Source of the DNA: Bipalium vagum
Lineage: Eukaryota
NCBI GenBank assembly: GCA_037834085.1
Contig: JBBMKC010216135.1
Location: 1-34,537 of the forward strand
Reading direction: 5' to 3'
Length of the DNA: 34,537 bases
Part shown: in pieces, positions 1,051 through 34,537 of the stretch
How the letters are laid out: every line of letters begins with the position of its first letter
Position numbering within the stretch: position 1 is the first letter of the stretch
The notes under the pieces: model-generated
Told to the model about the DNA's origin: nothing
Databases searched by the model: none
What the model saw: only the letters and a program-made list of their open reading frames with translations
Made by a program: the position numbers and the translations under genes

Positions 1051-1859
1051 CAAAAACTGGAAATATGCGGGTCACAAAAAAGAAATCACAGACCAGGCTA
1101 TGTAATCGATATTGAGGAACTACAAGAAGACACTTCAGAATTGTAGAAGAAATCCTTGTAAGACTCTAACAGAGGCAAAGAAAAATCAAGAAAAATTTGA
1201 AATTCCTTTTGAAATTAATTTGAAAGTTCACAGAAAAAGATGAACTTTTTGTGATTCACACAATCTTCATATGATAGAAAAATACCAGTATTTTTTTTTA
1301 ATTTAAGAGGTGAAGAAATGTTATCGTAAACCGTTGAAAGTGAATATGTTTAGAATGTTTCTAAGACATCCGTTCAAGCCATTATCTCCCCATTTGTTAC
1401 AAAATGGTGGATTTGGATTTGAATAACAATTATTACCAACAAAAAGTTTGATTGTTTTGAAATACCTTTAAATCCAGCAACTGCAGCAAATTTAGGTAAA
1501 AATGGAAATTTAACTGTTTCTTTATTACAATCATCAAATGCCTTAGGTTTATCAGAAACAATTATAGTTTTAAATTGAAATTAAAATGTAATAAAATCAG
1601 GTGAAAATATAAATTTACAAAACAATTTCTATCCCTTTTGTTTTCTAATGTGACTTTAAAATAAGGTTCATCAGAAGTAGAAACAATTCAAAATTCAAGT
1701 CCATCAAAATCGATGTAATAATGATTGATAAAAATCATTATTGGCAAATATTTGAATGGATTTCAGATAGAAATAAAGAACAACAAACATTTACAAGAGA
1801 GTTTTCCCTGTCTGTAATTGTTAGTGAATTTTTGTAGTAATGGTTGATATCAGACAGAA

Positions 1860-2045
1860 TAATTGGTTAAAGGTATGATGCGCGATAATGTATGAAATAC
1901 TTTCATTCAATCAGTAACATAATTATATAATCCATAATGCATAATACGACATGTATTAAGGAATCACTCTGCAAAACGAGAAAAGCGTTGACCCTTACAG
2001 AAGTGCTCGAATGAAGAATGCTTTCTGGTCTTTCTGAAAATAATT
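1860..2045 (-). pseudogene. Third, decayed fragment of the ankyrin-kinase locus (linker exon plus adjacent intron)
   Basis: aattggttaaaggtatgatgcgcgataatgtatgaaata...gtattaaggaatcactctgcaaaa...cccttaca closely matches 26788-26926 in the same orientation and the reverse complement of 12223-12361. A deleted version of the EDRKALV linker exon follows (tgctcgaatga...aatgctttctggtctttctgaaaata). Confidence 0.85.
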
Positions 2046-4358: not shown

Positions 4359-7300
4359 ATGACGACGTTGACTCAGAGTAAAAAGGTAAGTTAATCAAAT
4401 AACAAGGAATTTCAGTTGCAAATTGAAATGGAACACGTTTTCTGATACATTTCCACAGTTCTTTTGATCGATTTTTGTCATTTTGAATATTTGTGTCGCG
4501 GATGCTGATCGCTCGTCGTTTCCTTTCTCAAATAAAATATTATTTCTGGTAAGCTTTCAAGGATAATTTGATCTTTTGTGCAGAAAGGGACTCATCCAAT
4601 GCTTGCTGCCTGTGAGAAGGGAGAACTTCAAACAGTAAAGGCTTTGGCAGTAGATCCGCTCAATTTGGAAATATGTGGAGAGGTGATTTACATGGTTACG
4701 TGTCTTGGTGACTTTAAGAAATGGTATACATAGGACGACAGAAGACCTATTCATCTGTGCTGCAAGAAAGGTTTCTTTTTTATTGCTAAGTTCTTGATCG
4801 AAAGAGGTTGTGACGTTGAACCATGCGATAAAGTTATTGGGTCTTTCTCAAACGATATCTTTTAATAATCGATTCAGAAATATATGAAACCCATTCACTT
4901 GGCTGCAAGGAATGGTCATGTTGATATCTTCGAGCTTTTACTTGACAAAGGGTGTAATATTGAGATTACGGATGAAGTTATTAATTTGTACTCTAAAAGC
5001 ACTTTAAAATTGAGTTCAGTTTGGTAGGAAACCCATTCACTTGGCTACAGAAAATGGTCACATTGATATTGTCAAGATTTTATCTGACAAGGGTGCTGAC
5101 ATGGAGGCCTGTGACTGGGTATTCGAATAATCCTCTAAATAATTCAAAATTTTTGAAATAGACTCAAAACAAACCCATCCATGTAGCGGCGGAGCACGGT
5201 CATTTTAACATTTTGAAATTGTTGGTTGAGAAGAGTTGCCACATTGAAGCTTGTGACCGGGTAAGTGATAAACTTAGTGAAATAATTTATAAGAATCGGT
5301 TTAGAATGGGAGGAGGCCCATTCACTCAGCTGCAGAGAAAGATGATTTTGATATTGTCGAATTCTTAATAGAGAATGATTGTGACATTGAGGCCTGTGAC
5401 TGGGTGGGTGTTTTATTTATTGCCCATAAATGAGCTTTTAAAAAATATTAAGGAAAATAGGAGACCCATTCACTCAGCGGCAGAAAAAGGTCATTATAAC
5501 ATTGTAAAATTTCTCATTGAGAAGGGTTGCGACATTGATGCTCGTGACAAAGTTATTGATTTATTGTGATGTGAATAATTTTTGAAAATAAATTCAGAAT
5601 AAAAAGAGACCTATTCACTTAGCTGAAGAAAACAATCATATTAACATTGTGCAGTTCTTGATCGAAAAGGGTTGTGATCTTGAAGCTTGTGATTGGGTTA
5701 TTAATTTCATCTGAGCAAATATTGATCTATAATATGAAATTTAGGAAAAGAAAAGACCTATTCATTTGGCAGTAGAAGAAGGTAATGTTGATGTTATCAA
5801 ACTATTGTTTGAAAAGGGCTGTGACCTTGAGGCTTGTGATGAAGTTATTGATTTCATTAAAAATGGATTCTTAAGCTTGAATTTAGGGGAGAAAAAGACC
5901 AATTCATTTAGCTGAAGAAAATAATTATGTTAAGATCACCAAATTTTTAATAGAGAATGGATGCGACATTGAAGCTTGTGACAGGGTTATTAATTTCGTC
6001 TCAACAAATATTCCTTTAAAGTATGAAATTCAGGAAAAGAAAAGACCTATTCACTTGGCAGTAGTAAAAGGTCATATTGATGTTGTGAAGCTATTGTTTG
6101 AAAAGGGTTCAGACCTTGAGGCTAGTGGTGAAGTTATTGATTTCCTTTAAAATGGATTCTTAAGCTTGAATTTAGGAGAGAAAAAGACCAATTCATTTAG
6201 CTGAAGAAAATAATCATGTTAAGATTACCGAATTTTTAGTAGAGAGTGGATGCGACCTCGAAGCTTGTGACAGGGTTATTCATTTCGTCTCAACAAATAT
6301 TGTTTTATAATAGGACATTTAGAAGATGAAAAGACCTATTCATTTAGCAGTAGAAAGAGGTCATCTGACTGTTTTCAACCTTTTGATTGAAAGGGGTTGT
6401 AACATTGAGGCTTGTGATGAAGTTGTAAATTTTTTGTCGATAATTCACTTTAAAATTGAATTCAGAGTAATAGGAGACCTATTCACATGGCAGCAAAAGA
6501 GGGCCAACTTGATATTGTCAAGGTTTTGCTTGACATGGGTTGTGACATTGAGGCTTGTGACAAAGTTATTAGTTTGTTTTCAATCATTAATTTTGAGAAT
6601 GAGTTCAGACAAATAGGAGACCTATTCACTTAGCCGCAGAAACAGGTCATCCGGATGTCTTCAAATTCTTGTTTGAGCGGAGCTATTATACTGAAAGTTT
6701 TGACGAGGTTTTGATTTGATCGTAGTAAATGATCATTTGAACTTTATTCAGAATAGAGACAAAATAATTCACTTGGTCGCAGCAAATGGTCATCTTGATA
6801 TTGTTCAGTTTTTATTTGAGAAGGGTCATGATATTGAGGCTTGTGACAAAGTTATTGATTTTGCCTTAATAAATCATTTTAAATGGGATTCAGAATAAAA
6901 GGAGGCCAGTTCACATGGCAGCAGAAGGACATCTTAAAGTGATTAAGTTTTTATTGGACAAAGGTTGTGACATTGAGGCTTGTGACTCGGTTATTGATTT
7001 TGTTCGCAAGAAATAATGTTTAAAATTGAATTTAGAAAAATAGAAGACCGATTCACTTGGCTGCATCCACTTCTCGTCTTGATATTGTCAAATTTTTGTT
7101 TGAGAAAGGTTGTGACATTGAGGCTTGTGACTGGGATTTTGATATATTGATTTGTTCCCAAGAAATAATTTTTAAAATTGTATTAAGGATAATAGAAGAC
7201 CTATTCACCACGCTGTATCAAGATTTGGTCTTGATATTGTCAAATTTTTGTTTGAAAAGGGCTGTGACATCGATGCCCGTGACAACGTATTTGATTTGTT

Positions 7301-10300
7301 ATCAATAATCAATTTTTAAATATGAATTTAGTTTGGTAGGCGACCCATTCATTTTGCTGCGAAAAATGGGCATATTGACATTTTGAAGTTTTTAATTGAA
7401 GTCGGTAGTGACATAGAAGCTTGTGATTGGGTGATTGATTTGTTCTCAACGTATGATTATTAGCCGTTTCATTTAGACTAACTCGAAACCCATTCACTTG
7501 GCTGCGAGAAAAGGTCATCTTAATATTGTGAAATTTCTTTTTGAGAGGGGTTGTGATTGTGAAGCCCGTAACGAAGTTATTGATTTATTCTCAATGAAAT
7601 ATTTTTAAAGTGAGCTCAGAAAAACAAGAGACCTATTCACTTGGCTGAGGAAAATCGTCATCTTGATGTTGTCAAGTTCTTGTTTGAAAGGACCTCTAAA
7701 ATTGGAGACTGTGACTGGGTCTTTCAATTCTTCCTATTAAATAATGTTTAGAAATAATTTCAGAGAACGACACCAATTTACATCGGTTCAGAAGAAGATC
7801 ATGTAGATGATTTGAAGCGCTTATTTGACGGGGGATGTGATATAGGTGCTTGTGATGAAGTTAATGGTGTATTTTTTATTAGCAAATTGTAAAAGTAAGT
7901 TCAGAATGGTCGGAGACCCATTCACTTGGCTGCAGAAAGTGGCCATCTGGGTGCTGTGGAGTTCTTGTTTGAGAATGGTTGTGACATTGATGCTCACGAT
8001 AAAGTTTTCCATTTGTTTTTTCAAGAAATAATTTCTGTTTAAAATGAACTCAGATTGGAAGGAGTCCCTTTCACTTAGCCGCACAAAATGGCCACTTGGA
8101 TGTTGTGAAGTTCTTGTTTGATCACTTGTGTGACTTTGACGTCTGTGACAAAGTTATTCTCTTTTCTCTATGAAAATTTTATTCAAAATGTAATCAGAAA
8201 AATAGAAGACCCGTTCACTTAGCTGCAGCAAAAGGTCACGATGATGTTTTAAAGTTCTTGGTAGAGAAGGGATGTGACATTGTGGCTTGCGAAAAAGTTA
8301 TTATTTTATTCTCTAAATGGTATAATATTATGTTGGAACAAAAATAATGACCGTTTTCCAAAAATTGTTTCCGTATCAATAATTTTAGAATACATTTATA
8401 TTGGTAACTCTATTTCTAAGGCGCGTTCTCTGCTTAATAAAAAGGCGGTTAATTTTTTAAATGCACCAATTTATTTATCCATCTTAGAAGTTTTTACAAC
8501 TCCGATGGTTTTCTTACACAAATTCTAACCTGTTCATTATGGTGCAAAGCGACAAGAAACGTAATAAGACATTAATTGACAAAATGTTTCTGAAAAATTT
8601 AAGGAAAATGGTAGTAGACTTCAGTCAGCTAATGATGATTAGTTGAAAACAATGATCGAAGTAGACTCACTATAAGTTTCGAAACACCAAAGTTCATCAT
8701 ACATGCGATATTTGAACAAAGTTTTCAAGGTTAAGATGGACCAATTGAACGAAAATCATAGGTTACTGCCGTTATGATATCTATTCCAGATATCTTTTGC
8801 TCAACAGAAACGCATCGTTTCCTGATCGTATCATTACGTTTAATGGAAATGGTTGTTGTGGGATATTGTGTAATGACTTCTGGATAATGGTTGGATCATG
8901 AAATGTGTTAAGATCATTAATGTCTAAAGGCATGTCTAAATATTGTAAATAGATGTAATGCACAAAAATCTTCTGCGACAATAAGTAGCGTTAGTTAACA
9001 AAAATGTCCTCTATTACTTCATGATAACGCTCGACCTCTCAAAGAAAACATTACTTGACAAAAATTTTATAACTATGGGTTATACCCTTCAACCCCCTCA
9101 CAAATTTAAATATTCAAGAAGTTGGGATGATTTATGCATCAGAAACAGTTGAAAAATGAAGGGTATGTGCAACACTCCTTATTGAAACTTTTCGCTATTA
9201 GAATCCCGTGTTTCTAAGGAATTGGTATAATTATGGTCATTTCACGTTGGAAGCCGTCTATTCCTTCCATTGGGTGATACTTTGATTAATAAAGCTCTGT
9301 TTGAACTGAGTTTTTGAATTTGAAAATATTAAAAAAAAAATAAAAAACGGTCACTTTATTTGCGCCCACCCACTTACCAATTATAATTTTAAAACTAAAT
9401 TCAGTCTGGAAGGAGTCCCGTTCATTTATCTGCTCAAAATGGACATTTGGATGTTGTGAAATTCTTATTTGATCATGGATGTGATATAGAGACATGTGGC
9501 GAAGTTGTTGATTTATTCTCAATTATTGATTTTTCACAAAATGGTTCAGAATGGTCGGAGACCCATCCACTTGGCTGCGGAAAAAGGTCATCTTCATATT
9601 GTCAATTTTTTGTTTGAGAAGGGTTGTGACATTGATGTCCATGATGAAGTTATTGATTTGGTCTCACAAAATAATTTTTGAATTGTGATTTCAGTATGAC
9701 TGGACACCAATCAAGTTGGCTGTGGAAAACGGTCATTTGGATGTTGTCAGGTTTTTATTTGGCAGGGAATGTGACATTGGAGGAGGAGGTAGAAAGGTAT
9801 TTTCTTTCTCAGTAAATAATTTCTTAAAGGTAATAAAGTACAATTGGAGACCCATTCACTCAGCTGCAAGAAAAGGTTATCTAAATATTGTCCAGTTCTT
9901 AATAGAGAATGGTTGCGATATTGAAGTCTGTGCGTTGGTTCGTTATTGATTCTGAATGGATGATTTTTTAAAATCAATTTCAGTTTAATAGAAAACCTAT
10001 TCATTTTGCTGCACAAAGTGGTCATATTAATATAGTGAAGCTTCTGTTTGACAAGGGTTGTGATGCTGAGGCTCGCGATAAAGTTATTGATTTGATCTCG
10101 ATGAGCAAATTTTAAAAAAATTTCAGTTTGGTAAAAAACCCATCCATCTGGCTACAGAAAACGGTCATCTTGATATTGTCAAGTTTTTGTTTGAGAGTGG
10201 TTGTGATTTTGATGATTGTGACAAAGTGATTAATTGATTTTCAATAATAATTTTTAAAAATTCATTCAGAATAGCATCCGGCCCATTCACATTGCTGCTG

Positions 10301-13300
10301 AAAAAGGTCATCTTAATATTGTCACGTTCTTCGATGAAAAGGGTTGTGACATCAAATCTTTTGACAAAGTGATTGGTTTATTGTAAATAATTTGTTTTCA
10401 ACATGAATGCAGTGGGGAAGGAGACCCATCAGTTTGGCTGCAGAAAACGGTCATATTGATATTGTCAAGTTTCTTTTCAACAAGAGTTCTGATAACGAAG
10501 TTTGTGACAAGGTTACTCGGCTTGCTCTGAAAATATATTCTTTAAATGTCGAAAATAGTTTTATTCTCATCCCATTCACTTAGCAGCAGAAAATGGTCAC
10601 CTTAATGCTGTCAAGTTCTTGATTGAGAAAGGCTGTAACATGGAGGCTTGTGATTTGGTTATTTATTTATTTGCACTAAATAATTTATAAAAAAGAAATT
10701 CAGTTCAATAAGACATCAATTCACTTAGCAGCAGAAAAAGGTTATCTAAATGTTAACGAGTTCTTGGTTGACAAGGGGTGTGACATGGAGGCTCGTGATT
10801 CGGTTATTGATTTATTGGCTCTAAATAGTTTATAAAAAAGAAATTCAGGATAATAAGAGACCAATTCACTTAGCAGTCGAAAATAATCATCTTGGTGTTG
10901 TTGAGTTCTTGATTGATAAGGGCTGTGACATGGAGGCTTGTGACAAAGTTGATTAATGTCAATCAAATAAAGTATAAAATGTATGTAGGATAACTGTCGA
11001 CCTATTTATTTGGCTGTGAAGGGAGGTCATGTTGACATAGTCAAGGTCTTATTGAGCAAAAATATTGATATTGATTATGCTGTGCAAGTAACGATTTATT
11101 TCATTTGAATAACAATAATAATAATACATGTATTTAGGGTAACTGGAATCTTGTTAATATTGCTAGCCTTAATGGTCACGGCGCTGTAGTTAAATGTTTA
11201 CTAGAACATGGTTGCAAGTGTGACGCCCTTGACGAGGTATTATTTCGCTCAAAATTTCAAGTTCAATTAAAATTCTTCAGTGGTGAAACTAATGTTCCTA
11301 TTTGAATAATAGTCTTTTCTCCTTTTAGCACTGCGAATTAAGACTAATAATAATGAATGTTGGTGAGTAATGGGGTTGATCGAAGCTAGTTCAACTAATG
11401 AGACCTATAAAATCAATACTAGCAAAAGACCAAGGATGAAACCAATGAATTAAAAGTTACTATTTTTAGATTGTTAGAGTTCTTGAAGTATGGAGAGGCT
11501 GCATTAATTGAGGTCTAAAACTAAACTAAGCAGCAACGTTGGCTGTACTTGTAATAAAGGTGCAGTAACAGGTCATGTAATCACATATCCGATATAGGTT
11601 TTCGCATGCTTAGAAGTGGTATTTGTTTAAATAAACTCTGAGAAAGCGCGAAAAATGAATATGTCATAATTACATTTCAGAAATGAACTGTCTTTCTTAC
11701 GCGACAATTAGTACGAGGGGACGGACATCGAATGTTGGAGTAAATATATTCTGAAGAGGTTCGTGGGTCTTCAAAGTGCAAATTTTGGCTTATCTGATTT
11801 GAGTGATTAGGAGGGATAAGGTCAGCCATAAAGTGTGGCTGATGCTCTAAATTGGATGCTCACTTGGATTCATTCCAAAGAAAAATCGATTGATAGCTGA
11901 CCGGTTTTTTTAACAGAGCTGGAATGTTCTGCAAATTAATTAAAAGCACGAGGTCCAAGAATGAAACACAAACATTATGTTCGATGGAATACTGCTGCCT
12001 ATGTAGATATAGGGTGTCATTAGTCCTGTGTCCACTCTATGGTGCTGAGGTGATCCTTCGTCTGGTTTGCGGTATTGTCAGGGTTTTGTCGGGGCCTTTT
12101 CTAATATTATTTTTCAGTCTCTTTTATAAATGAATGAAACTAACTATTTTCAGGAAGACCGGAAAGCATTGGTGAATTCTTCTGACGACGGTTTCATTCG
12201 AGAACTTTTGTTCAAGTTAAATTGTAAGGGTTAATGCTTTTCTCGTTTTACAGAGTGATTCCTTAATACATGTCGCATTGTGCATTATGAATTATATAAT
12301 TATGTCACTGACCGAATGAAAGTATTTCATACATTATCGCGCATCATACCTTTAACCAATTATCAATTATCACTTATTCTAACTGATATTATGGGGCACA
12401 AGTTGAACAGGAAATTAAATGATCTCAGGAAAAGCGCTCAAGAAAGACGATAAATGTCGTCACGGTGAGAGGTTTGAAAATAGCGGTATGAACATTTCAT
12501 CAACCTTGTCTTTCTCACACTGATCAGTCCAAGACAGTATAGATAGATTCTTTGACAGCGAAGAAAGGCGGGACGGTTGTTTTCCTTCGAAGACGGAAAG
12601 AAAATGGAATGATTTGGATCATCGCTCCACGGGGTTCTACAGTGACAAGAGAGAGTATATTGACAAGTCTGTTAAGAGAGAATTTTTTTAATTATGCCTG
12701 TAAAGTGCATTCAGTTAAACCAGGCATGTCCAACCTACTTCTCGCGGGCCGCATTGTGGCCCACTTATTGTGTAAATGCGGCCCAGTATCGACTCATTTT
12801 GGACCTATTTACGCATTATCATATATTCTGGTAATTTTAGGGCCTATTTAAATATTTAGGTTTGCAATGCGACCCATTAAATCAAAAGGTTGGACATCCC
12901 TGATTTAAACAAATCCAATCCACATTCATCCGTGCGAGTATGTATTAAGGAAAATCTCTGCACTGTGACTTTTATTATTTTCGTTACAGTTTCTTTAATG
13001 TTTGTTCCCCTTTTATTTTATACCACTTTTCAAATGTCATTTGAAGTCTTTGACTTCTTCTTTCTCAGCCTCGGTCCAGGCAGCGTTTGAATCAAAAGAG
13101 AAGGTTGGTCAAGGAGGTTATGGAGTGGTTTACAAAAATAAAGACTTTGATGAAAACTTCGTGGTGAAGAAAATACAACACAAACGGATTCCTAATTACG
13201 AGAAAAGTATTGAACTAAACTTGGGCAAATACAGGAAGCTTCTCTACCACGAGAACATCATTGAGTTCATTGGGGAGAAATGGGGCGAAAAGAGGTCTTT

Positions 13301-14829
13301 TGTATTGATGAGATATGCTTCAGGGGTGAGAATCTTAAATTTTATTATCATTATTATTTCCCATAATAATCAAAAAAATAATAATAAAAAAGTTGAAATA
13401 TTATTTTAAAATGATGAAATTGGAATGATAATTTCTCTTACCATTATTTAGGGGTCTCTGGATAAGTTATTGGAATATGGAGCACTGGACCACCGGACGA
13501 TTATGTTGTATAACAAAGGAATTCTTGAAGGATTGAAATTTCTTCATGCCAATGGAATCATCCACCGGGATATCAAACGTAATTGATTTGGTAAATATAC
13601 TCAAGACCAAAGACCGTTCAGAGAGGCAAAGACGATAACATTTTGGTTTGTCTCTTGACCAATTGGAACATGTTAAAAAATTTCATGAACTTTCCAAACC
13701 AAACCCTTTCAGAGAACTGTAATATCTTCCGGTTCTCCTTGACACTTTCGACAGTAGAACAAAGTTGAAGAGAAACACAAACCAAAATGTTCGCCTTTCT
13801 CAATGGTGCTCATTTGGTCGAGTCAATTCCAATTTTCGACAGAGAAATAATTTGTTTTAATTTTCAAAGCTGAAAATATTTTGCTCGATGATCGCGACAG
13901 GGTGAAGTTGTGCGACTTTGGACTTGGTCGAGTATTTACAGGTCCTGGTGCCTGTTCGGAAGATAATAACGATGAACTCTCTGAGCCAGGACCTTCCAAT
14001 GCTATGGTTTCCTATAAAACGTCCACTGAGGGTACTCATGCTTATCTTGCTCCAGAGGTGATCGTTGACGCCTGTTATTACTTTTCTTCGGACATTTGGT
14101 CGTTCGGGGCCACAAATGTAGCAATGTTGACAGGTCGGTTTACAGATCCATCCTTTCATTACTTAAAGTCATGTTTAACTATCTCTATTATTAGTGCTTG
14201 CGCTGCTGGGACCATTTGTGGAATCTGGCACTCGATAAAGGAACCAAACCAAAAATACATTCATTTTTCTGAAATAATCTCCTTTAAAGGCAACATACTT
14301 TTGTCCCATGGAACCACCAGCTCTCGAAGAGTCTTTCCATTATGCAGTTGGCACTTTACGTACCAATACCAGCTTGACTTTTACTTTTCCTCGTCCAAGT
14401 GACGAAAAGCGCTGAAGTCGTCATTTCATTTTAAAGGTTTGGAACAAAAAGAAGTGCAAAGGAGATAAGTCTGGTTGATGCGTGTTCAGTGTCATTAATT
14501 ATGCCGCTCGGGTCCACAATAATGGAATCCCACACATTATTATTATCTTTATTATTATTATTATTATTATTTGCATCTTCTATGAAAAGTATCTTTAATT
14601 AAATTTTTTTGTTTGGTTAGGGAAACGTCCTTATTATGATGAGCATGGGGAACCTGCCCTTAAGATCGGAACTAAAAAGAAAATCGACTTTATGCCTTTG
14701 AAACCAATGTCAAAGAACTTGAAGCATCTTTTAGAGAAAGCTCTTACTCCGGACCCAAAACTTCGAAGTTCTGCCGATGAGCTCCTTCGATGGATACGTT
14801 CAAAGGAGCCATATTTTGATGAGTTCTGA
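4359..14829 (+). CDS. Copy A: predicted multi-exon ankyrin-repeat protein kinase (~39 ANK repeats plus C-terminal Ser/Thr kinase, roughly 1600 aa if all exons are joined)
   Basis: Candidate first exon ATG 4359-4385 (MTTLTQSKK|GTAAG) is tentative. The last ANK exon ends in phase 0 at 11236. It can join the phase-0 linker exon 12154-12223 directly, or via small exons 11329-11362 and 11478-11512, and so reach the kinase in frame. The fusion is inferred from phase compatibility and the same arrangement in copy B. The nearer acceptor at 11280 gives TGG TGA (ANK-only product). Confidence 0.6.
4584..11236 (+). CDS. Copy A ankyrin array: 39 phase-0 exons, one ANK repeat each
   Basis: Exon starts: 4584, 4734, 4878, 5020, 5162, 5305, 5453, 5598, 5745, 5887, 6034, 6176, 6323, 6466, 6609, 6752, 6894 (96 nt), 7036, 7188, 7332, 7477, 7620, 7764 (96 nt), 7905, 8054, 8198, [1.1-kb intron with mariner], 9405, 9550, 9695 (102 nt), 9839, 9984, 10127, 10270, 10413, 10559, 10704, 10849, 10989, 11138. 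All others are 99 nt. All are stop-free and AG/GT-bounded, except a GA donor at 7135. Consensus xxxRPIHLAAExGHLDIVKFLFEKGCDIEACDx is a canonical ankyrin repeat. Confidence 0.95.
8331..9374 (+). mobile_element. Decayed mariner element in the intron between ANK exons 26 and 27
   Basis: TA-flanked imperfect TIRs: TA|TGTTGGAACAAAAATAATGACCGTTTT and AAAACGGTCACTTTATTTGCGCCCACCCACT|TA. Transposase remnants F(P)DRIITFN (~8818) and LLHDNARP (9014-9037). Confidence 0.85.
12154..14829 (+). CDS. Copy A linker plus Ser/Thr protein kinase domain (STE/MAP3K-like appearance)
   Basis: Exons 12154-12223, 13069-13325, 13452-13578, 13870-14133 and 14621-14829 splice in frame. Motifs: [90 protein letters not shown], ending ...YFDEF-TGA. 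All catalytic motifs are intact. The subfamily call is by eye only. Confidence 0.93.
12721..12902. mobile_element. Non-autonomous hAT-type MITE (182 bp) in a copy A intron
   Basis: TIRs CAGGCATGTCCAACCT / AGGTTGGACATCCCTG (15/16 match). 8-bp TSD AGTTAAAC / ATTTAAAC (7/8). Absent from the equivalent intron of copy B. Confidence 0.88.
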
Positions 14830-15742: not shown

Positions 15743-16967
15743 GTCGGTATCAGTACTATCCTTTATGAGAACTAATCAATATATATTATAGAACTTACTA
15801 AATATATCCACCAACATATTAATATTCACTCATATTAGCGTATTTATAGTAAGTTTCATTTTTTGAGTCATGCTTATTAATTTTAAATTTTAAATTCTGT
15901 TGGTTTAGTTTTAATTAACATCAACCCACAATTTATATTATTATTATTATTATAGTTATTTATTTTAATTAAAACAAATTTATAATTTAAATATTATTAT
16001 TTTTTATAAAATAACATAAAATTAACAAGGAGTCGATAATAAAAGGAAAGTAAGCCTAACAAGGCTTTTTAATGCAAATTCTGAAAAATTAATAAATTTT
16101 TACATGTCAATAATGAACTGTGGGGAATCACTGTCCATCAGCTCTTGGTTGGTTTGTTGTGGTTCCGGCTCTTTTGTGATCTCTGTTTTCGAATTGTTTA
16201 TGGGTGCAGCGGTTGCTGAGACCTCTTTTTCTTTAGATCCTAACAATTATTAATCAATAATAATGACAGCTGAAATAGTTGAAACAGGTTCTGGATAAGT
16301 ACCAACAGTCCGTAATTCTTGTGGAGACCATATTCATTTGAAAATTATCGTTAGAGGCGTTGAGTATTTTCTCCATAGTTCATTTTTCCCGACATGAATC
16401 TCACAGTTAATCATCACGAAGGAATTCCGTAGTTAACGCTGAGATGAGTATAAAGAAGGGCTTTAAAAGAAACAGATAGGACATCTCTTTTAAAGCCAGA
16501 AAGTCAAGACTGCATTCATCAGTGGAGTCATTGATGCTGTGTCTCTACAAAACATATCCCTATGTGCCATTAAAGTGACTCGATCAAGTACTGACATGGT
16601 TGACCTAGTTTCAGATGACAGACCTATATATATTTAAATTTATTAAGATAATTTTTGTAACTTGACCTAGTTTTACCCAATTGACATATTTGAACGAATG
16701 GGTTACCTTTTCAACGAGGTCATACCACTTAACAAAATAGTGAACAATCCCTATCATCATATCCCATCGTGTTAACTCCTTCAATTTATGATATTGATAA
16801 GGGCCTTCCGTGTGGATATAAAGTGTCGAGGTATGCATTTTGGATGGTTGCTTATGTGAGTGAGAAGGTGGTCGAAATCTCCGTGTCTGTTCATTGATCT
16901 TATGAGAAGGTTATGTCAATTGGAAGGTGTCGGTATCAGTACTATCCTTTATGAGAACTAATCAATA
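15743..16967. repeat. Exact 39-bp direct repeat at 15743-15781 and 16929-16967
   Basis: GTCGGTATCAGTACTATCCTTTATGAGAACTAATCAATA occurs twice, 1186 bp apart. Confidence 0.9.
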
Positions 16968-21638: not shown

Positions 21639-23549
21639 CAGCGATTATGTTTAAACAGAACAATTTTAGTTTAAGATTTTTAATTTTTAACTTCGAATAA
21701 TTTTGAGTTTGTTTATGTGTCAACTTTGTTTAGTTTTCGTTTACTTTTCAATTATTAATTTATAATATTCAATTTGTTTTTCTTTACTTCTTAAATTTAT
21801 GATTTACTTTACTTTTTAGATCTATTTTAGAATTATCAATAATAAATAAAGAAACCCTGACTCTTAAAGAGAAATTGAAATTTTATGTCAGTTGGATGAG
21901 AGTGTTAAGCAAGCCGAGCTAGCAAGAAAGCACAAGGTCGATAATAATTTAAAGTATTTGTTTATATAATTGATTTTTGGTAAATAAACAGTTTTTAAAA
22001 AGTAGTTTAGTGTTTTGCATTTAATGAATAATTTGGGGGAAGAGACCAATCAACCTATCAAATACAAAATAACAGAGAAAGAATTTGTGATGCTATTTCA
22101 ACTCGACCATTAAACACCAAGAAAGTTTAAAATACACCCTTTGAAAGCATTGATTCCGAATTACTGAACTGGTTTAAACTTCAAAAAATGAACAATGTTT
22201 CAATTTCTTCACAAATACTTCTTGAAAAAGCAGCTCAATTGGCTGAAAGATTGGAGATTAAAAATTTCAACTGTAACGTAAGTTGGATTCAACGTTTTAG
22301 AAAACTCTATTCAGTTACATATGGTATTGTCTCTGGTGAATCTAAAGTAATGGATCAGTTGGTTGTTCAAAATTGATTAATTGATCAATGGTTTCAACGT
22401 CAATTGGGATATGAAAATCGAAATATCTTTAATGGGGATGAGACTGGTCTTTTCTTTAAAATGTTACATAATAAAACTATGAGACTTAAAGGAGACAAAT
22501 GCAGTGGTCGTGAAATATCAAAAAAAAAAAAGATTAACTGTTTTCCTTTGTGCTAGTATTACTGGTTAAAGGATGCCTCCTATCATTATTGGAAAATATT
22601 TAAAACCGAAATGTTTCAAAAATAAAAGCGTGGAACATCTACATCATCATGCAAATACAAATGCTGGGATGACATCCGAAATTTTCAAAACGGAATTAAT
22701 GAAATGGGATACAAGGCTAAGAAATGGTAAAAGAAAATTTTTACTGTTCGTTGATAATTGCTCAGCGCATGCGGATATCAATAATATTTTAACAAACAAA
22801 CAATGGTATTCTTGTCATCAAATACAACAAGTGTGTTGCAACCTATGGAGATGCAGAAATAATGAAAAATTCTAAAGTGAATTACCGAAAAAGTTTGGTT
22901 GTCCCTTTAATAAACTGTTCTGACAAAATCCACGAATACGATATCAATATTTTTGATGCCATTCAGATGATATCGGATGGTTGGGAAAGAATATCCTCAG
23001 GAACAATTTATAATTGCTTTCATCATTCAATTTTATCGCAACAAGTAAACATTCCCGAGACTTGTAAAGATGTAAATGCTTTAATTGAGAACGAAATTAA
23101 AGACGAATATACTTTTTTAGCCGAATTTTTTGAATCAAGACGAGATTTAGAAGATTATTTAGTCATTGATAATGGTTTGGAAGCAATGGAGATTGAAGAA
23201 GAAACTGAGAATATTCATGGTTCATCCGAACCATTGGATAAAACGAATGAAATTGAGATTGGTGATTTTTTAGAGGCTTTAACAATAGTCAAGGAATACT
23301 ATTTTACAGAAAATTACAATGAAGTTATTTTTATCAACTTGCTTAACGTTGAGAATGATCTCAGAGATAAATTTTTCAAGAAAAAAAGTTAAGGAATATT
23401 TCAACTTGAAATAAAATTTAATAATAATGACATCGTATTTTATTGGTGATGTTTTATTTTATTGATTTTATCGTTTAAACAGAATTTTTCGCTTAAACAG
23501 AATAAACTTTTGTACTCCCGATTTTGTTCTGTTTAAGCAAGTCATACTG
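21639..23549 (+). mobile_element. Tigger/pogo DNA transposon with pseudogenised transposase
   Basis: TA|CAGCGATTATGTTTAAACAGAA ... TTCTGTTTAAGCAAGTCATACTG|TA, with subterminal CG(T/C)TTAAACAGAA copies at ~23472 and ~23490. CENP-B HTH and DDE_1 motifs: IDSELLNWF, ILLEKAAQLA, SWIQRFRK, IFNGDETGLFF, PIIIGK..KPKCFK, AGMTSEIF, LLFVDNCSAH, NTTSVLQP. Broken by stops and frameshifts. Confidence 0.93.
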
Positions 23550-24483: not shown

Positions 24484-26995
24484 CTAATCAAAGAATGACT
24501 CCATAGAATATATCCATTGAAGGAGCTCGTTGGCGGAACTTCGACGTCTTGGGTCCGGATTAAGAGCTTTCCTTAAAAGACGCTTCATGTTCTTTGACAT
24601 CGGTTTCAAAGGCATGAAGTCGATTTTCTTTTCAACTCCAATTTTAAGGACAGGATCACCAGGCTCATAGTAATAAGGACGTTTTCCTAACCAAACAAAT
24701 GAATTTAATGAAAGAGACTTTTTCGAAGAAGATGGAAATAATAATACTAATGATATTGTGTGGAATTCCATTATCGTGGATCAACACTACACGTTTTCAA
24801 AAATGTATGTTTTTCGCACCTGTCCTTTGACACACGACCAACATGGCACTAACCGTCAAATTTAGACATCCACCAGTAAAAGGTATAAACTCAGTCGAAA
24901 CCATTTTCCATGATCATCTGAATGTATAGAGGCTCTGCAGTTGTTGGACCATTCACAATAAGATATTATGCGACAAAGTGAGTCCTGTAAAATGTTGCCA
25001 AAATGTTCTTGAAATTAAACAAAGGTGATTTAATTTACAACGGCGTTACTTGTCAAGAAACAGGGATGTATTCTTACGACTCCGAAACTAAGCAGCAATA
25101 AATTGGTTGGATATTTAAAAGTGAATCGGTCCCAAAGTGCTCAAAAGTTACAGAGAACAGTCGGTTTCATGGCACAAAAGTGTGTTACCTCTAAAGAAGA
25201 ATATTTTGGAAAAATGAATGTATTTTTGGTTTGGCTCCTTTTTCCATTGCCAGATTCCACAAGTCCTCCCAGAAGTGCATGCGCTATTAATAGAGTTAGT
25301 TAAACATGACTTTGAGTAATGAAAGAATGGATCTGTGAACCAACCTGTCAACATTGCCACATTTGTGGCCCCGAACGACCAAATGTCCGAAGAAAAGTAA
25401 TAACAGGCGTCAACGATCACCTCTGGAGGAAGGTACGCTACAGTACCATGCGTTGACGTTTTATAGGGATCAACATCACTCGAGAGTCCTGATCCAGATA
25501 TTTCATCGTTATTATCTTCCGAATAGGCACCATGACCTGTAAATACTCGACCGAGTCCAAAGTCGCACAACTTGACCCTGTCGCGATTATCGAGCAGAAT
25601 ATTTTCAGCTTTGAAAATTAAAACAAATTATTTCTCTGTCGAAAATTGGAATTGACTCGACCAAATGAGCACCATTGAGAAAGGCAGACTTTGGTTTGTC
25701 TTTTCTTCACCTCTGTTCTACTGTCGAAAGTGTCACGGAGAACCCGGGAAATATTAAAGTTAATGAAATGTTTGAACATGTTCGAATTGGTGAAGGGACA
25801 AACCAAAATGTTATCGTCTCCGCCTCTCTCAACGATCTTTGGTCTTGAGTACATATACAAATCAATTACGTTTGATATCCCGGTGGATGATTCCATTGGA
25901 ATGAAGAAATCTCAATCCTTCAAGAATTCCTTTGTCAAAATCAATAATCATCCGGTGGTCCATGGCAACATTTTCTAATAACTGATCCAGAGACCCCTGA
26001 AATTATGGTAAGACAAATTATCACCCCCATTCCGAAATGGGGAATTTTTTAATTGTTTACTTTAAAATATTTAAAAAGATGAATGAAATTTTTAAGACAA
26101 ACTTATTTTTAAAATTTATTAAAAAAGAAATAACCAGGTCTGAGAAAATTTGTTTAAAAATTATTTGTATTGACCAATTAATAAATCCATTAAAAAAATG
26201 ACATGTAATTCTGAGCATAAACCGATTGATATTAACAAAAACGATGGAAATAATAATAAATAATAATGATAAAAAAATTTAAGGTTCTCACCCCTGGAGC
26301 ATATCTCATCAATACATAGGACCTCTTTTCGTCCCACTTCTCCCCAATGAACTCAATGATGTTCTCGTGGTAGAGACGCCTGCCGAATATGCTCAAGTTT
26401 AGTTCAACACTTTTCTCGTAATTTGAAATCCGTTTGTGTCTTATTTTCTTCACCACAAAGTTTTGATCAAAGTCTTCATTCTTGTAAACCACTCCATAAC
26501 CGCCTTGACCAACCTTCTCTTTCGATGAAAACGCCGCCTGGACCGAGGCTGAGAAATAAGAAGTCAACAACGTTAAATGACATTTAAAAATTGATATAAA
26601 ATAAAAGGGGAACAAACATTAAAGAAACTGTCATGAAAACAATAAAATTCACAGTGCAGAGGTTTTCCTTAATACATACTCTGACAGTGACGGTGTTTAT
26701 CGTCTATTTTGAAAGCTTTTCCTGAGATCAGTTGATTTCCTGTAAATCTTGTACCGCAGAATATCAACCAGAATAAGTGATAATTGATAATTGGTAAAGG
26801 TATGATGCGCGATAATGTATGAAATATTTTCATTCGGTCAGTAACATAATTATATAATTCATAATGCACAATACGACATGTATTAAGGAATCACTCTGCA
26901 AAATGACAAAAGTATTGATCCTTACAATTTAACTTGAACAAAAATGCTCGAATGATACCATCGTCCGAAGAATTCACCAATGCTTTCCGGTCTTC
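24484..26995 (-). CDS. Copy B linker plus Ser/Thr kinase domain
   Basis: Minus-strand exons 26995-26926, 26548-26292, 25996-25870, 25608-25345 and 24686-24484 splice in frame. Motifs: GQGGYG, HRDIKPEN, DFG, GTVAYLPPE, SDIWSFG. Ends FFD-TAG, two codons before the TGA shared with copy A. Several differences from copy A are synonymous. Confidence 0.9.
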
Positions 26996-30194: not shown

Positions 30195-33100
30195 CTCGTC
30201 AAGGGCGTCACACTTGCAACCATGTTCCAGTAAACATTTAACTACAGCACAGTGACCATTAAGGCTGGCAATATCAACAAGATTCCAGTTTCCCTGATAA
30301 TATTTATTATTATTTTCAAATGAAATAAATCGTTACTTGCACAGCATAATCAATATCAATATTTTTGCTCAATAAAAACTTGACAATGCCAACATGACCT
30401 CGATTTACAGCCATATGAATAGGTCGACAATTATCCTACACACATTTTATACTATATATAATTGACATTAATCAATCAATAACTTCGTCACAAGCCTCCA
30501 TGTCACAACCCTTATCAAACAAGAACTCAACAACATGAAGATGATTATTTTCGACTGCTAAGTGAATTGGTCTCTTATTGTCCTGAATTTCTTTTTAAAA
30601 AAACTATTGTGTAAATAAATCAATAACCGAATCACGAGTCTCCATGTCACACCCCTTTCTGACCAAGAACTCGATAACATCCAGATGACCGTTTTTTGCT
30701 GCGAACTGAATTGGTCTATTATTTTTCTAAATTTACTTTTTAAAAACTATTTATTGCAAAAAAATCAATAACAAAATCACGAGCTTCCAAGTCACAGGAC
30801 TTTTCGAACAAAAACTCCATTACATCCAGATGACCGTTTTCAGCTGCAAAGTGCATAGGTCTCCTGTTTAACTGAATTTTTTGTTAAAGCGTATTTACTG
30901 CAAATAAATCAATTACTGAATCACGAGCCTCCATGTCACAGCCCTTCCCGACCAAGAACTCGATAACATTCAGATGACCGTTTCCTGCTGCTAAGTGAAT
31001 GGGGTGAGAATTAAACTATTTTCGACATTTAAAGAATATATTTTCAGAGTAAACCGGATAACCTTGTCACAAACCTCGTTATCAGAACTCTTGTCGAATA
31101 GAAACTTGACAACATCAAGATGACCTTTTTCTGCAGCCAAACCGATGGGTCTCTTTCCCCACTGCGTTCATGTTTAAAACAAATTATTTACAATACACCA
31201 ATCACTTTTTCATAAGATTTGATGTCATAACCTTTTACATCGAAGAACGTGACAATATCAAGATGACCTTCTTCAGCAGCAATGTGAATGGGTCGGACTC
31301 CATTCTGAATGAATTTTTAGAAATATTTTTTAAAAATCAATCAATCACTTTGTCACAAGCATCAAGTTCACAACCACTCTCAAACAAAAACTTGACAATA
31401 TTAAGATGACCGTTTTGTGTAGCCACATGGACGGGTTTTTGACCAAACTAAAAACTTTTTTAAACTTGCTCACCCAGAGCAAATCAATAACTTGATTACG
31501 AGCCTCAGCATCACAACCCTTGTCAAACAGAAGCTTCACAATATCAATATGACCACTTTTTGCAGCAAAATGAATAGGTTTTCTTTTCAACTGAAATTGA
31601 TTTTACAAATTATCGTTTGAGAATCAATCACGCACCCAGTCACAGGCCTCAATATCGCAACCATTCTCTATTAAGAACTGGACAATATTTAGATAACCTT
31701 TTATTGCAGCTGAGTGAATGGGTCTCCAATTGTACTTTATTACCTTTAAGAAATTATTTACTGAAAAAGAAAATACCTTTCCACCTCCCCCTCCAATGTC
31801 ACATCCGCTGCCAAATAAAAACCTGACAACATCCAAATGACCGTTTTCCACAGCTACTTTGATGGGTGTCCGGTCTTGCTGAAATAAAAATTCAAAATAT
31901 TTTTTGTGAGAAAAAATCAATAACCTGATCATGGACATCAATGTCACAAACCTTTTCAAACAAGAAATTAATAATATGAAGATGACCTTTTTCCGCAGCC
32001 AAGTGGATGGGTCTTTGACTATTCTGAACCATTTTTGAAAAATCAATAATTGAGAATAAATCAACAACTTTGTCACATGTCTCTATATCACACCCGTGAT
32101 CAATTAAGAATTTCACAACATCCAAATATCCATTTTGAGCAGATAAATGAACGGGACTCCTTCCAGACTGAACTTAGTTTTAAAATTATTTTCATGAAAA
32201 AGAAAGATTAACATGGTCACAAGCAGCCATGTCACAGTTTTTCTCAGTCAAGAACTTAATAACATCCAGTTGACCCTTTTCAGCAGCAATGTGAATGGGT
32301 CGTACTCCATTCTGAATGAATTTTTAGAAAATTTTATAGAAAATCAATCAATCACTCTGTCACGAGCACTAAGGTCACAACCACATTCAAACAAAAAATT
32401 GACAATATCAAGATGACCTTTTTCTGTAGCCAAATGGACGGGTCTTTTACCGAACTGAATAATTTTTAAAATTTACTCATTCAGATCAAATCAATAACCA
32501 GATCACGAGCCTCAGAATTACAACCATTGTCAAAAAGAAACCTTATAATACCAAGATAACCTTTTTCTGTAGCCAAATGGACGGGTCTTTTACCAAGCTG
32601 AATAATTTTTAAAATTTTTATCACCCAGATCAAATCAATAACTTCATCACGAGCCTCAGCATCACAACCCTTGTCAAACAGAAGCTTCACAATATCAATA
32701 TGACCACTTTTTGCAGCAAAGTGAATCGGTTTGCTTTCCGACTGAAATTAACTTTACAAATTATGAATTTAGAAAAATCACTCACCCAGTCACAGGCCTC
32801 AATGTTGCAACCATTCTCTATTAAGAACTTGACAATATTTAGGTAACCTTTTTCTGCAGCTGAGTGAATGGGTCTCAAATTGTATTATTATTTATCTTTA
32901 TTATCTTTAAGAAATTTTTTACTGAGAAAGAAATTACCTTCCTACCTCCTCCTTCAATGTCACATCCCTTACCATATAAAAACCTAACAACATCCAAATG
33001 ACCGTTTTCCACAGCTAACTCGATGGGTGTCCAGTCATACTGAAATCACATTAAAAAATTATTTTGTGAGAACAAATCAATAACTTCATCATGGGCATCA

Positions 33101-33328
33101 ATAACACAAGCCTTCTCAATCAAGAAATTGACAATATCAAGATGACCTTTTTCCGCCGCCAAGTGGATGGGTCTCCGACCATTCTGAACCGTTTTGTGTA
33201 AAATCAATAATTGAGAATAAATCAATAACTTCGTCACATGTCTCTATATCACAGCCGTGATCAAATAAGATTTTCACAACTTCCAAATGACCATTTTCAG
33301 CAGATAAATGAAAGGGACTCCTTCCAGA
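30195..33328 (-). CDS. Copy B ankyrin array (visible part): 22 phase-0 single-repeat exons
   Basis: Exon 5' ends on the minus strand: 33328, 33183, 33039 (102 nt), 32884 (acceptor displaced), 32741, 32597, 32454, 32311, 32167, 32023, 31878 (102 nt), 31734, 31590, 31447, 31304, 31161, 31015, 30871, 30726, 30582, 30435, 30293. The rest are 99 nt and stop-free where translated. No start codon or upstream exons lie within the window. Confidence 0.93.
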
Positions 33329-33968: not shown

Positions 33969-34005
33969 TGGTTGTAAACTGTTATGATTTCTGTACCAAT
34001 ATATA

Positions 34006-34537
34006 CACTCCTTTAATTAAGTCTGTTCACCCCACTTAATTGAATAATATACATAGATTTTAATCTATTTTTTATGTTAATATAATGAAATCGATGTTTA
34101 AATGCATCAATATTAAATTAAAAGTGGTACAATTTCAAAAACAGAATTTTATAATGGTAACATTTTTAACGAAAGAAGAAAGAATTTCAATTGTTGCACT
34201 TTCAAAATCAGTTAAAAATTGGACCGAAGTAATATTAATGATGAAGAGGGAATTTAATTGCCACGTGACCAAGCGTGCTTGTCAAAAAATTGTTCAAAAA
34301 TTTAATAGTCGTGGTAACGTGATTGATGATCAAAGAATTGGTCGACCCAGTTTTCTATCAGAGATAAAAGGCTGATTAAGAGACTATCTATACGGTCCTG
34401 ACTATCAAGTTTAACCGTGGTTGCCCTTGAATTTTATAGACAAACAGGAAGGAACATTATTTATGTATGGGTAGGTAAAGTTTTAAATGATTTTGGTTTA
34501 AGACGATATGTTGCAACACCAAAACCTTTTCTCAATT
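34006..34537 (+). mobile_element. 5' end of a Tc1-like transposon with degenerate transposase N-terminus
   Basis: TA|CACTCCTTTAATTAAGTCTGTTCACCCC is a TIR-like start. ORF MVTFLTKEERISIVAL...QKIVQKFNSRGNVIDDQRIGRPSFLS matches the paired-like HTH plus GRPR-like motif. Downstream GLRRYVATPKPFLS resembles the Tc1 basic region. Confidence 0.8.

What the first reader, a model, noticed from the sequence alone, without database searches (positions are those of the whole stretch)
9405..10368. Three versions of the same exon block differ mainly at predicted contact residues
Exons 27-33 occur once in copy A and twice in copy B (33328-32213 and 32167-31206). Exon 31 starts FNRK / SESK / LKRK and ends K / E / Q. 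Exon 30 reads AARKG / AAEKG / AAIKG and ends L / W / W. Exon 29 starts YDW / YDW / QDR. Exon 28 starts NGRR / NGRR / NSQR. Scaffold codons and adjacent introns stay very similar. Radical multi-nucleotide changes clustered this way suggest diversifying selection or short gene-conversion patches.
Basis: partly seen in the sequence, partly recalled or inferred. Interest (0 to 1): 0.7.

Follow-up and report, generated by a model that had tools for sequence, protein, structure and literature searches.

The report
Flatworm ankyrin-kinase family with selected hotspot
A genome that is likely a land flatworm's carries dozens of genes joining a long chain of ankyrin repeats (one repeat per exon) to a protein kinase, and in one short stretch of that chain the residues predicted to grip a partner change more than twice as fast as silent sites, as would be expected of a sensor chasing a changing target.

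Summary
The block is real. It is part of two tail-to-tail genes of a large ankyrin-array plus kinase family (45 arrays, 739 repeat exons found), likely of a land planarian. Each 33-residue repeat is one 99-nt phase-0 exon. The three window copies do not differ 'mainly' at contact residues (14 of 53, 15 of 41, 19 of 61 differences), and alone they do not reject neutrality. With four more copies from other contigs, contact codons of exons 27-33 give dN/dS 2.3-3.0 (p ≤3e-6). The four unseen copies alone give 2.9-3.8. The signal survives per-exon trees, double hits and a recombination simulation. It is local: exons 2-16 give 0.9, exons 18-26 give 0.6, and the family as a whole about 1. Five codons in repeats 30-31 carry most of it. 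Short conversion patches find little support; unequal crossovers inside exons do. Best reading: a cytosolic sensor-kinase family under diversifying selection, with an immune role inferred, not shown. This scan noted similar one-repeat-per-exon ankyrin-kinase genes before, in a choanoflagellate and another protist.

The parts
4359..4385 (+). Candidate 9-codon start exon of gene A (ends in phase 0 before GT); use not shown
   Evidence: present in A and 5 paralogs; no RNA data
4584..8296 (+). Gene A ankyrin exons 1-26, one repeat per exon, introns 43-53 nt
8297..9404 (+). Long intron 26 (1108 nt); parts match the DNA upstream of copy B (33967-33604, 33549-33329)
9405..10368 (+). Gene A exons 27-33, the block under diversifying selection at contact codons
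9845..9847 (+). Exon 30 codon 3 (W; W/L/F/S in other copies), positively selected site
   Evidence: posterior 0.98-1.0
9869..9871 (+). Exon 30 codon 11 (R; E/I/M/A/D in other copies), positively selected site
   Evidence: posterior 1.0
9935..9937 (+). Exon 30 codon 33 (L; W/Y/D/V in other copies), positively selected site
   Evidence: posterior 1.0
9984..9989 (+). Exon 31 codons 1-2 (FN; SE/LK/WV/FD/SK in other copies), positively selected sites
   Evidence: posterior 0.97-1.0
10413..11236 (+). Gene A ankyrin exons 34-39
12154..12223 (+). 70-nt linker exon joining the ankyrin array in frame to the kinase (join inferred; in C95230 this exon lies about 90 nt behind the last repeat)
13069..14829 (+). 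Gene A Ser/Thr kinase, four exons (13069-13325, 13452-13578, 13870-14133, 14621-14829), open frame with GxGxxG, HRD, DFG, APE
32213..33328 (-). Gene B block B1: 8 exons (27, 28, 29, 30 without in-frame acceptor, 31, chimera 32/31, 32, chimera 33/x)
31206..32167 (-). Gene B block B2: exons 27-33, closest to gene A
30195..31161 (-). Gene B remaining 7 ankyrin exons
26926..26995 (-). Gene B linker exon
24484..26548 (-). Gene B kinase, four exons, open frame; 59 of 299 codons differ in residue from A
33970..34537 (.). High-copy repeat inserted in the intron upstream of B1; the contig ends in it, so B's earlier exons are not seen
   Evidence: 40 of 40 scored candidates match at 86-100%, 560 candidates

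Best explanation
These are two members of an expanded family of ankyrin-array plus protein-kinase genes, likely of a land planarian, in which the predicted binding-face codons of repeats 27-33 have changed faster than silent sites, and which likely act as cytosolic sensors that would switch on the kinase when the array binds a fast-changing, probably foreign, protein. Shown: one repeat per phase-0 exon; block duplications, deletions and chimeric repeats made by crossovers inside exons; intact kinase motifs; omega above 1 at contact codons of exons 27-33, centred on repeats 30-31, and not in exons 2-26. Inferred: that array, linker and kinase are spliced into one protein of about 1,590 residues without a membrane anchor; that repeats 30-31 form the main binding patch; that unequal crossover multiplies this patch (it is duplicated in B, C23589 and partly in C70307) while point mutation under selection retunes it; that binding activates a MAP3K-like kinase feeding a p38/JNK-type stress or defence cascade; and that the ligand is a parasite or pathogen protein.
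For: Family: 739 repeat exons in 45 arrays; 712 are 99 nt, 729 have AG and 722 have GT at codon borders, and 6 carry a stop. 34 kinase matches among 106 candidates. 23 of 44 kinase-bearing strands have ankyrin exons on the same strand. DFG is invariant in 26 of 26 aligned kinase exons. The six most variable positions family-wide are 1, 3, 11, 12, 31, 33. By the alignment these equal designed-ankyrin positions 3, 5, 13, 14, 33, 2, of which 2, 3, 5, 13, 33 are named as randomised binding-surface positions in PMC4308713 (passages; position 14 recalled). Selection: omega contact 2.29-3.04, p 3e-6 to 1e-10 in 7 copies; 2.91-3.76, p ≤1.3e-5 in the 4 copies outside the window. Per-exon trees on 49 exons give 2.43, p 2.6e-7; with double hits 2.40, p 1.5e-6. 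Blind M1a/M2a 2dL 34-44, M8a/M8 34-44; 4 of 42 contact against 1 of 189 other codons above 0.95. 0 of 39 null simulations with free recombination between half-exons reached omega 2.3 (maximum 1.51). Synonymous change at contact codons is not raised (0.053 against 0.068), nor are intron edges (0.065 against 0.074). Only 4 NACHT matches in the genome, a lower bound.
Against: The three window copies alone are not significant (omega 1.3-1.8, p 0.05-0.38). Family-wide, contact omega is only 0.77-1.41 depending on model, and tree-based mixtures over 132 half-exon groups find no class above 1 under two models and 2dL 5.9 under the third. Constraint is loose throughout this subfamily: core omega 0.59-0.71 in the block, kinase A versus B 0.52-0.63. 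Some copies are damaged (B1 exon 30 acceptor; stop codons in 6 exons). No expression data, no ligand, no structure and no assay support an immune role. The MAP3K label rests on one 42-residue exon; a profile of another exon gives mixed kinase hits. The codon models are my own scripts, not PAML, with empirical rather than Bayes-empirical posteriors.
Confidence: 0.58

Rival explanations
1. The selection is real but the target is not a pathogen: the arrays track a fast-evolving self or selfish partner (germ-line or gamete protein, transposon protein, allorecognition factor).
For: The selection tests say nothing about the ligand. No expression data were found. A planarian immunity review has no occurrence of 'ankyrin' (PMC7958881, term search).
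Against: Families with the same hallmarks (repeat per exon, birth and death, selection on the concave face) are proposed non-self receptors in brown algae and fungi (PMC3341825, PMC4986451, passages). This is an analogy only.
Confidence: 0.24
2. A recently amplified family under relaxed constraint: exposed positions drift at the neutral rate, buried ones stay constrained, and no target drives the change.
For: Family-wide contact omega is about 1. Exons 2-16 give 0.91 and exons 18-26 give 0.58. Kinase omega is 0.5-0.6. Damaged copies exist.
Against: 0 of 39 neutral simulations came near.
Confidence: 0.11
3. The clustered multi-nucleotide changes are short gene-conversion patches copied from other repeats, or local mutation hotspots, which mimic selection.
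For: The arrays recombine: 9 derived chimeric rows, about 8 events. ILD on half-units gives p 0.012. 20 multi-nucleotide contact codons against 13.1 expected. One tract between the two C23589 blocks has Bonferroni p 0.03.
Against: 29 of 32 hot-site variants have no exact donor among the non-orthologous repeats of 739 exons. Neighbouring synonymous and intron sites are not raised. The core shows the same multi-nucleotide excess (14 against 8.0). A double-hit model leaves omega at 2.40. PHI-like p is 0.74.
Confidence: 0.07

Closest known systems
Ectocarpus LRR-ROCO and NB-ARC-TPR candidate receptors (PMC3341825; PMC11378527; passages read)
   Same: Each repeat is one exon; repeat number and order vary between paralogs; selection falls on the concave face; a signalling domain is fused to the array.
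   Different: Ankyrin, not LRR or TPR; kinase, not ROC-COR or NB-ARC; an animal host. The breakpoints mapped here lie inside exons (unequal crossover), not at exon borders. Selection is confined to one segment of the array. The Ectocarpus LRR-kinases were reported not to shuffle, whereas these kinase genes rearrange.
Fungal NLRs with ankyrin sensor repeats (Podospora Pa_3_8560; PMC4986451, PMC13449251; passages read)
   Same: Positive selection on inner helix and beta-hairpin positions; repeat-number variation; repeat exchange between genes.
   Different: No NACHT or NB-ARC domain. Neighbouring repeats are only about 65% alike in DNA, so there is no high internal conservation. Repeats keep a positional identity across paralogs.
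TNNI3K (N-terminal ankyrin repeats, then kinase; PMC6797218, passages read)
   Same: Domain order ankyrin then kinase; predicted to be soluble.
   Different: TNNI3K is an 835-residue conserved protein with a serine-rich tail. Here there are up to 41 repeats, no tail and dozens of fast-evolving paralogs, and the best solved matches of one kinase exon are MAP3K2 and MAP3K5.
RNase L (ankyrin sensor, pseudokinase, nuclease; recalled, no call)
   Same: An ankyrin array placed before a kinase fold as a cytosolic sensor.
   Different: The kinase here keeps HRD and DFG, and the frame stops right after it, with no nuclease domain.

Membership tests
Ankyrin repeat (Pfam PF00023) | 33-residue repeat above the curated cut-off | tested here: met
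   exons 27 and 31 score 32.3 and 29.2 bits against a cut-off of 21.1 (2 of 2 exons tested)
Active Ser/Thr protein kinase | Gly loop, beta-3 Lys, HRD, DFG and APE in one open frame | tested here: met
   (A and B; PPE in B); (DFG in 26 of 26). Activity not assayed
MAP3K (STE11) kinases | Kinase domain groups with MEKK/ASK kinases | tested here: inconclusive
   top 14 of 23 solved-structure hits are MAP3K2/MAP3K5; a profile of the next exon hits EGFR, JAK1, MEK1 and others; no tree with named kinases was built
NLR/STAND receptors | NACHT or NB-ARC nucleotide-binding domain | tested here: not met
   Only a 23-residue linker without Pfam match lies between array and kinase; none of the 4 NACHT matches is on the window's contig. 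NB-ARC was not searched genome-wide
Fungal high-internal-conservation repeat sensors | Repeats within a gene at least about 85% identical | tested here: not met
   offset self-matches within an array are 63-68% identical
Ectocarpus-type exon-per-repeat receptors | One repeat per exon, all in the same phase | tested here: met
   712 of 739 exons are 99 nt; 729 with AG and 722 with GT at codon borders (the caller looked only at codon borders, within two codons)
Ectocarpus-type exon-per-repeat receptors | Repeat number and order differ between paralogs; gene birth and death | tested here: met
   tail-to-tail pair in the window; damaged copies
Ectocarpus-type exon-per-repeat receptors | Positive selection on the concave binding face | tested here: met
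   for exons 27-33; not met for exons 2-26 or family-wide
Ectocarpus-type exon-per-repeat receptors | Spare or inverted repeat exons within introns | not tested
   The exon caller reported only strands with two or more exons
Ectocarpus-type exon-per-repeat receptors | Alternative splicing or somatic rearrangement of repeat exons | not testable with these tools
   No RNA holder listed
TNNI3K orthologs | Serine-rich C-terminal domain after the kinase | tested here: not met
   the frame ends a few residues after the kinase domain in A and B

The most novel reading that the evidence does not exclude
Land planarians have built their own intracellular immune-receptor repertoire without NLRs: dozens of ankyrin-solenoid kinases in which a discrete patch of repeats is duplicated, recombined and driven by an arms race, and in which skippable phase-0 exons could add combinatorial splice or somatic variants.
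Probability: 0.25. Interest if true: 0.8.

Novelty: new variant of a known kind. Interest (0 to 1): 0.58.

Why it matters
Planarian defence is known mostly from downstream signalling genes (TAK1, MKK, p38; PMC7958881, passages); its variable receptors are poorly known. A large, recombining ankyrin-kinase family with a mapped five-codon hotspot gives named candidates and a precise patch to test. It also shows that in a 39-repeat solenoid selection can be confined to a few repeats, which family-wide tests average away. It extends the exon-per-repeat receptor design of brown algae to an animal.

Tried and rejected
Expression: no RNA holder listed. The one run laid holds only contigs and could not rank or join anything. 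The 11-nt insertion before B1 exon 30 is read from the assembly only and was not checked against reads. Relatives elsewhere: kinase exon searches found nothing close (0 of 21 candidates; none at E ≤1e-10; 4 distant kinases of 7984 candidates; generic kinase clusters). These are short queries and weak evidence of absence. Literature: nine full-text searches (for the family and its analogues; for designed ankyrins) listed no paper describing this family. The library lacks most subscription papers, and no supplements were read; the gene tables of PMC13034038 may list these genes. One search gave omega 1.00 throughout through an optimiser fault and was replaced. One search timed out and was replaced. 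One search crashed before its sliding-identity part, which was not redone. A TGG-TGA stop exon right after the last repeat was considered and rejected, because its AG is not conserved in C254732 and C23589. An assembly artefact for B1/B2 was rejected: they differ at 95 of 693 coding sites. Pairs chosen on scaffold codons inflate dN/dS, and pairs chosen on introns deflate intron distance, so only baselines not used for choosing were trusted. No structure or complex was predicted.
Full report
Setting. The window is a whole contig (C216135) of a 441-Mb assembly in 272,664 contigs. The best COX1 of the assembly matches land planarians (Geoplanidae; best hit Platydemus manokwari, 97% when read with table 5). 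That the window belongs to this animal is inferred. It is AT-rich, its family is spread over at least 44 contigs, and it carries a repeat with hundreds of candidate copies in the assembly. Land-flatworm assemblies can hold prey and parasite DNA (PMC12534020, title and start of abstract only).

Anatomy. Two paralogs face each other tail to tail. Gene A (+) has 39 ankyrin exons from 4584 to 11236, a 70-nt linker exon and four kinase exons ending at 14829. Gene B (-) shows 22 ankyrin exons (33328-30195), a linker and a kinase. Both kinase frames are open and keep the catalytic motifs. Each ankyrin exon is one repeat in phase 0, with the intron at the tip of the predicted beta-hairpin. B's exons 1-26 are not seen because the contig ends in a repeat inserted in the homologous long intron. 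The splice from array to linker is inferred; in C95230 the linker lies about 90 nt behind the last repeat. No membrane segment is evident in A's model, but the start is uncertain.

Family. From the window and 63 further contigs picked by similarity, the exon caller found 739 repeat exons in 45 arrays: 712 of 99 nt, 678 short introns with median 45 nt, 6 exons with a stop and 10 without AG. 23 of 44 kinase-bearing strands have ankyrin exons on the same strand; most of the others hold little upstream sequence. These counts are lower bounds. No close relative turned up in public protein sets, which is weak evidence given the short queries.

Check of the observation. All motifs quoted are correct. 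B1 has 8 exons, two of them chimeric, and its exon 30 lacks an in-frame acceptor. I fixed the contact set (exon positions 1, 3, 11, 12, 31, 33) from the recalled designed-ankyrin library before any test. The register was then confirmed against a solved DARPin and, for five of the six positions, against PMC4308713 (passages). The same six positions have the highest entropy in the family, which is expected of any ankyrin family and is not evidence of selection. In the three copies these positions hold 26-37% of the amino-acid differences. dN contact is 0.17-0.25, dN scaffold 0.06-0.12, dS 0.13-0.26 and intron distance 0.13-0.15. Neither the comparison with introns (p 0.27, 0.42, 0.053) nor ML (omega 1.3-1.8, p 0.05-0.38) rejects neutrality.

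Selection test with more copies. Four more copies of the block lie on C23589 (two), C220991 and C70307. The diverged copies on C95230 and C176239 were left out, as were chimeric exons; C254732 was used only. Counted from column majorities, nonsynonymous change at contact codons is 99.2/645.5 = 0.154, against 114/1574 = 0.072 in introns and 76.8/1174.2 = 0.065 at synonymous sites; outer-helix positions give 0.076 and the core 0.045 (those p-values ignore shared ancestry). A separate tree for each exon gives 2.43 (p 2.6e-7), and a model with double substitutions 2.40 (p 1.5e-6). Site models that know nothing of the contact set find 7-9% of codons at omega 5-7 (2dL 34-44), and pick exon 30 positions 3, 11, 33 and exon 31 positions 1, 2. 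In 39 simulations with omega contact = 1 and an independent tree for every half-exon, the estimate averaged 1.03, reached at most 1.51, and was significantly above 1 in 1 of 39.

The signal is local. The same test gives 0.91 for exons 2-16 (43 exons), 0.58 for exons 18-26 (27 exons, short trees and so low power) and 1.59 for exons 34-39 (p 0.07). Family-wide, 71-149 disjoint exon pairs chosen on their introns give omega contact 0.77-1.41, outer helix 0.41-0.73 and core 0.26-0.41; contact exceeds outer helix in 12 of 12 fits (p ≤2e-5) but is significantly above 1 in only 2 and below 1 in 2. Mixtures over 132 half-exon groups show little or no class above 1, and 2dL 2.7-9.2 for contacts in the 59 groups of the window's subfamily. 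Constraint is loose in this subfamily: the kinase of A versus B has omega 0.52-0.63.

Recombination. Arrays of the subfamily differ by block duplications and deletions; the 27-36 region is doubled in B and C23589 and partly in C70307. Nine rows of derived chimeras were found (two are one shared event). Eight have crossover windows within codons 4-23, one at codons 31-33, and none in an intron. Exons make up about 70% of each unit and are the better-conserved part, so this is what ordinary unequal crossover predicts. Such crossovers keep a hairpin, its intron and the following helix-1 residues together. Short conversion patches among orthologous copies are weakly supported, and 29 of 32 hot-site variants have no exact donor in another repeat type.

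Mechanism. Most likely the solenoid binds a variable protein through the concave face of repeats 30-31 and their neighbours, and binding activates the C-terminal kinase, whose closest solved matches for one exon are MAP3K2 and MAP3K5 (one search is mixed). Planarians use a TAK1/MKK/p38 module in infection (PMC7958881, passages), and this genome shows only 4 NACHT matches. These steps are inference. I give 0.58 to this reading, 0.24 to selection by a self or selfish partner, 0.11 to relaxation alone and 0.07 to conversion or mutation artefact.

Comparison and novelty. It works like the brown-algal exon-per-repeat receptors (PMC3341825, PMC11378527; passages) and fungal ankyrin NLR sensors (PMC4986451, PMC13449251; passages). 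It is not an NLR (no nucleotide-binding domain), has no high internal conservation, and lacks the tail of TNNI3K (PMC6797218, passages). A land-planarian genomics paper mentions ankyrin-domain proteins as frequent among stress-responsive proteins but has no occurrence of 'kinase' (PMC13034038, passages; supplements not read). A flatworm duplication preprint lists ankyrin and kinase domains among frequent inparalogs (10.1101/2024.02.05.578899, passages). PMC8683736 was read in passages for the general paratope statement. Searches listed no description of this family. Two earlier notes of this scan describe similar designs in other genomes; they are unchecked and were used only as leads to two papers. 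Verdict: a new variant of a known kind, interest 0.58.

Noticed in passing
window 27424-30064 (-): AT-rich, frameshifted insert of about 2.6 kb in the intron between B's last repeat and its linker exon; one open piece matches the rve integrase core below the cut-off (29389-29640, E 1.5e-5). Absent from A. Possibly a degraded Polinton-like element (label recalled).
   Followed up: partly
window 22131-23389 (+): Broken pogo/Tc5-type DNA transposon (HTH_Tnp_Tc5 and DDE_1 matches) between the two genes.
   Followed up: partly
window 4359-4583; C70307 and C95230 upstream of their first repeat: A 9-codon ATG exon is followed by a possible 90-nt exon that has an early TGA in A and three paralogs but is open and hydrophobic in C70307 and C95230. 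It could be untranslated, skipped, or a lost N-terminal targeting segment.
   Followed up: partly
window 7135-7136 (+): Exon 18 of A is followed by GA rather than GT; 4 GA and 2 GC donors among 739 exons, and the commonest donor is GTTATT (190 of 678) rather than GTAAGT (8).
   Followed up: no
window 13069-14829 and paralogs: The kinases carry an insert of about 19 residues in the activation loop, variable between paralogs while DFG and the DIWSFG motif stay fixed; several pairwise omega values for this exon are near or above 1. It may be a second selected surface.
   Followed up: partly
window 1859-1999, 12223-12363, 26787-26926: A 141-nt element just behind the linker exon of both genes also occurs at 1859-1999 (92-94% identical).
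   Followed up: no
window 16026-16910: A short spliced-looking stretch with open frames and no Pfam match lies between the two genes; not identified.
   Followed up: no
C201740, C180531, C205385: Other subfamilies show more uniform, recently amplified one- or two-repeat units, unlike the position-specific repeats of the window's subfamily.
   Followed up: no
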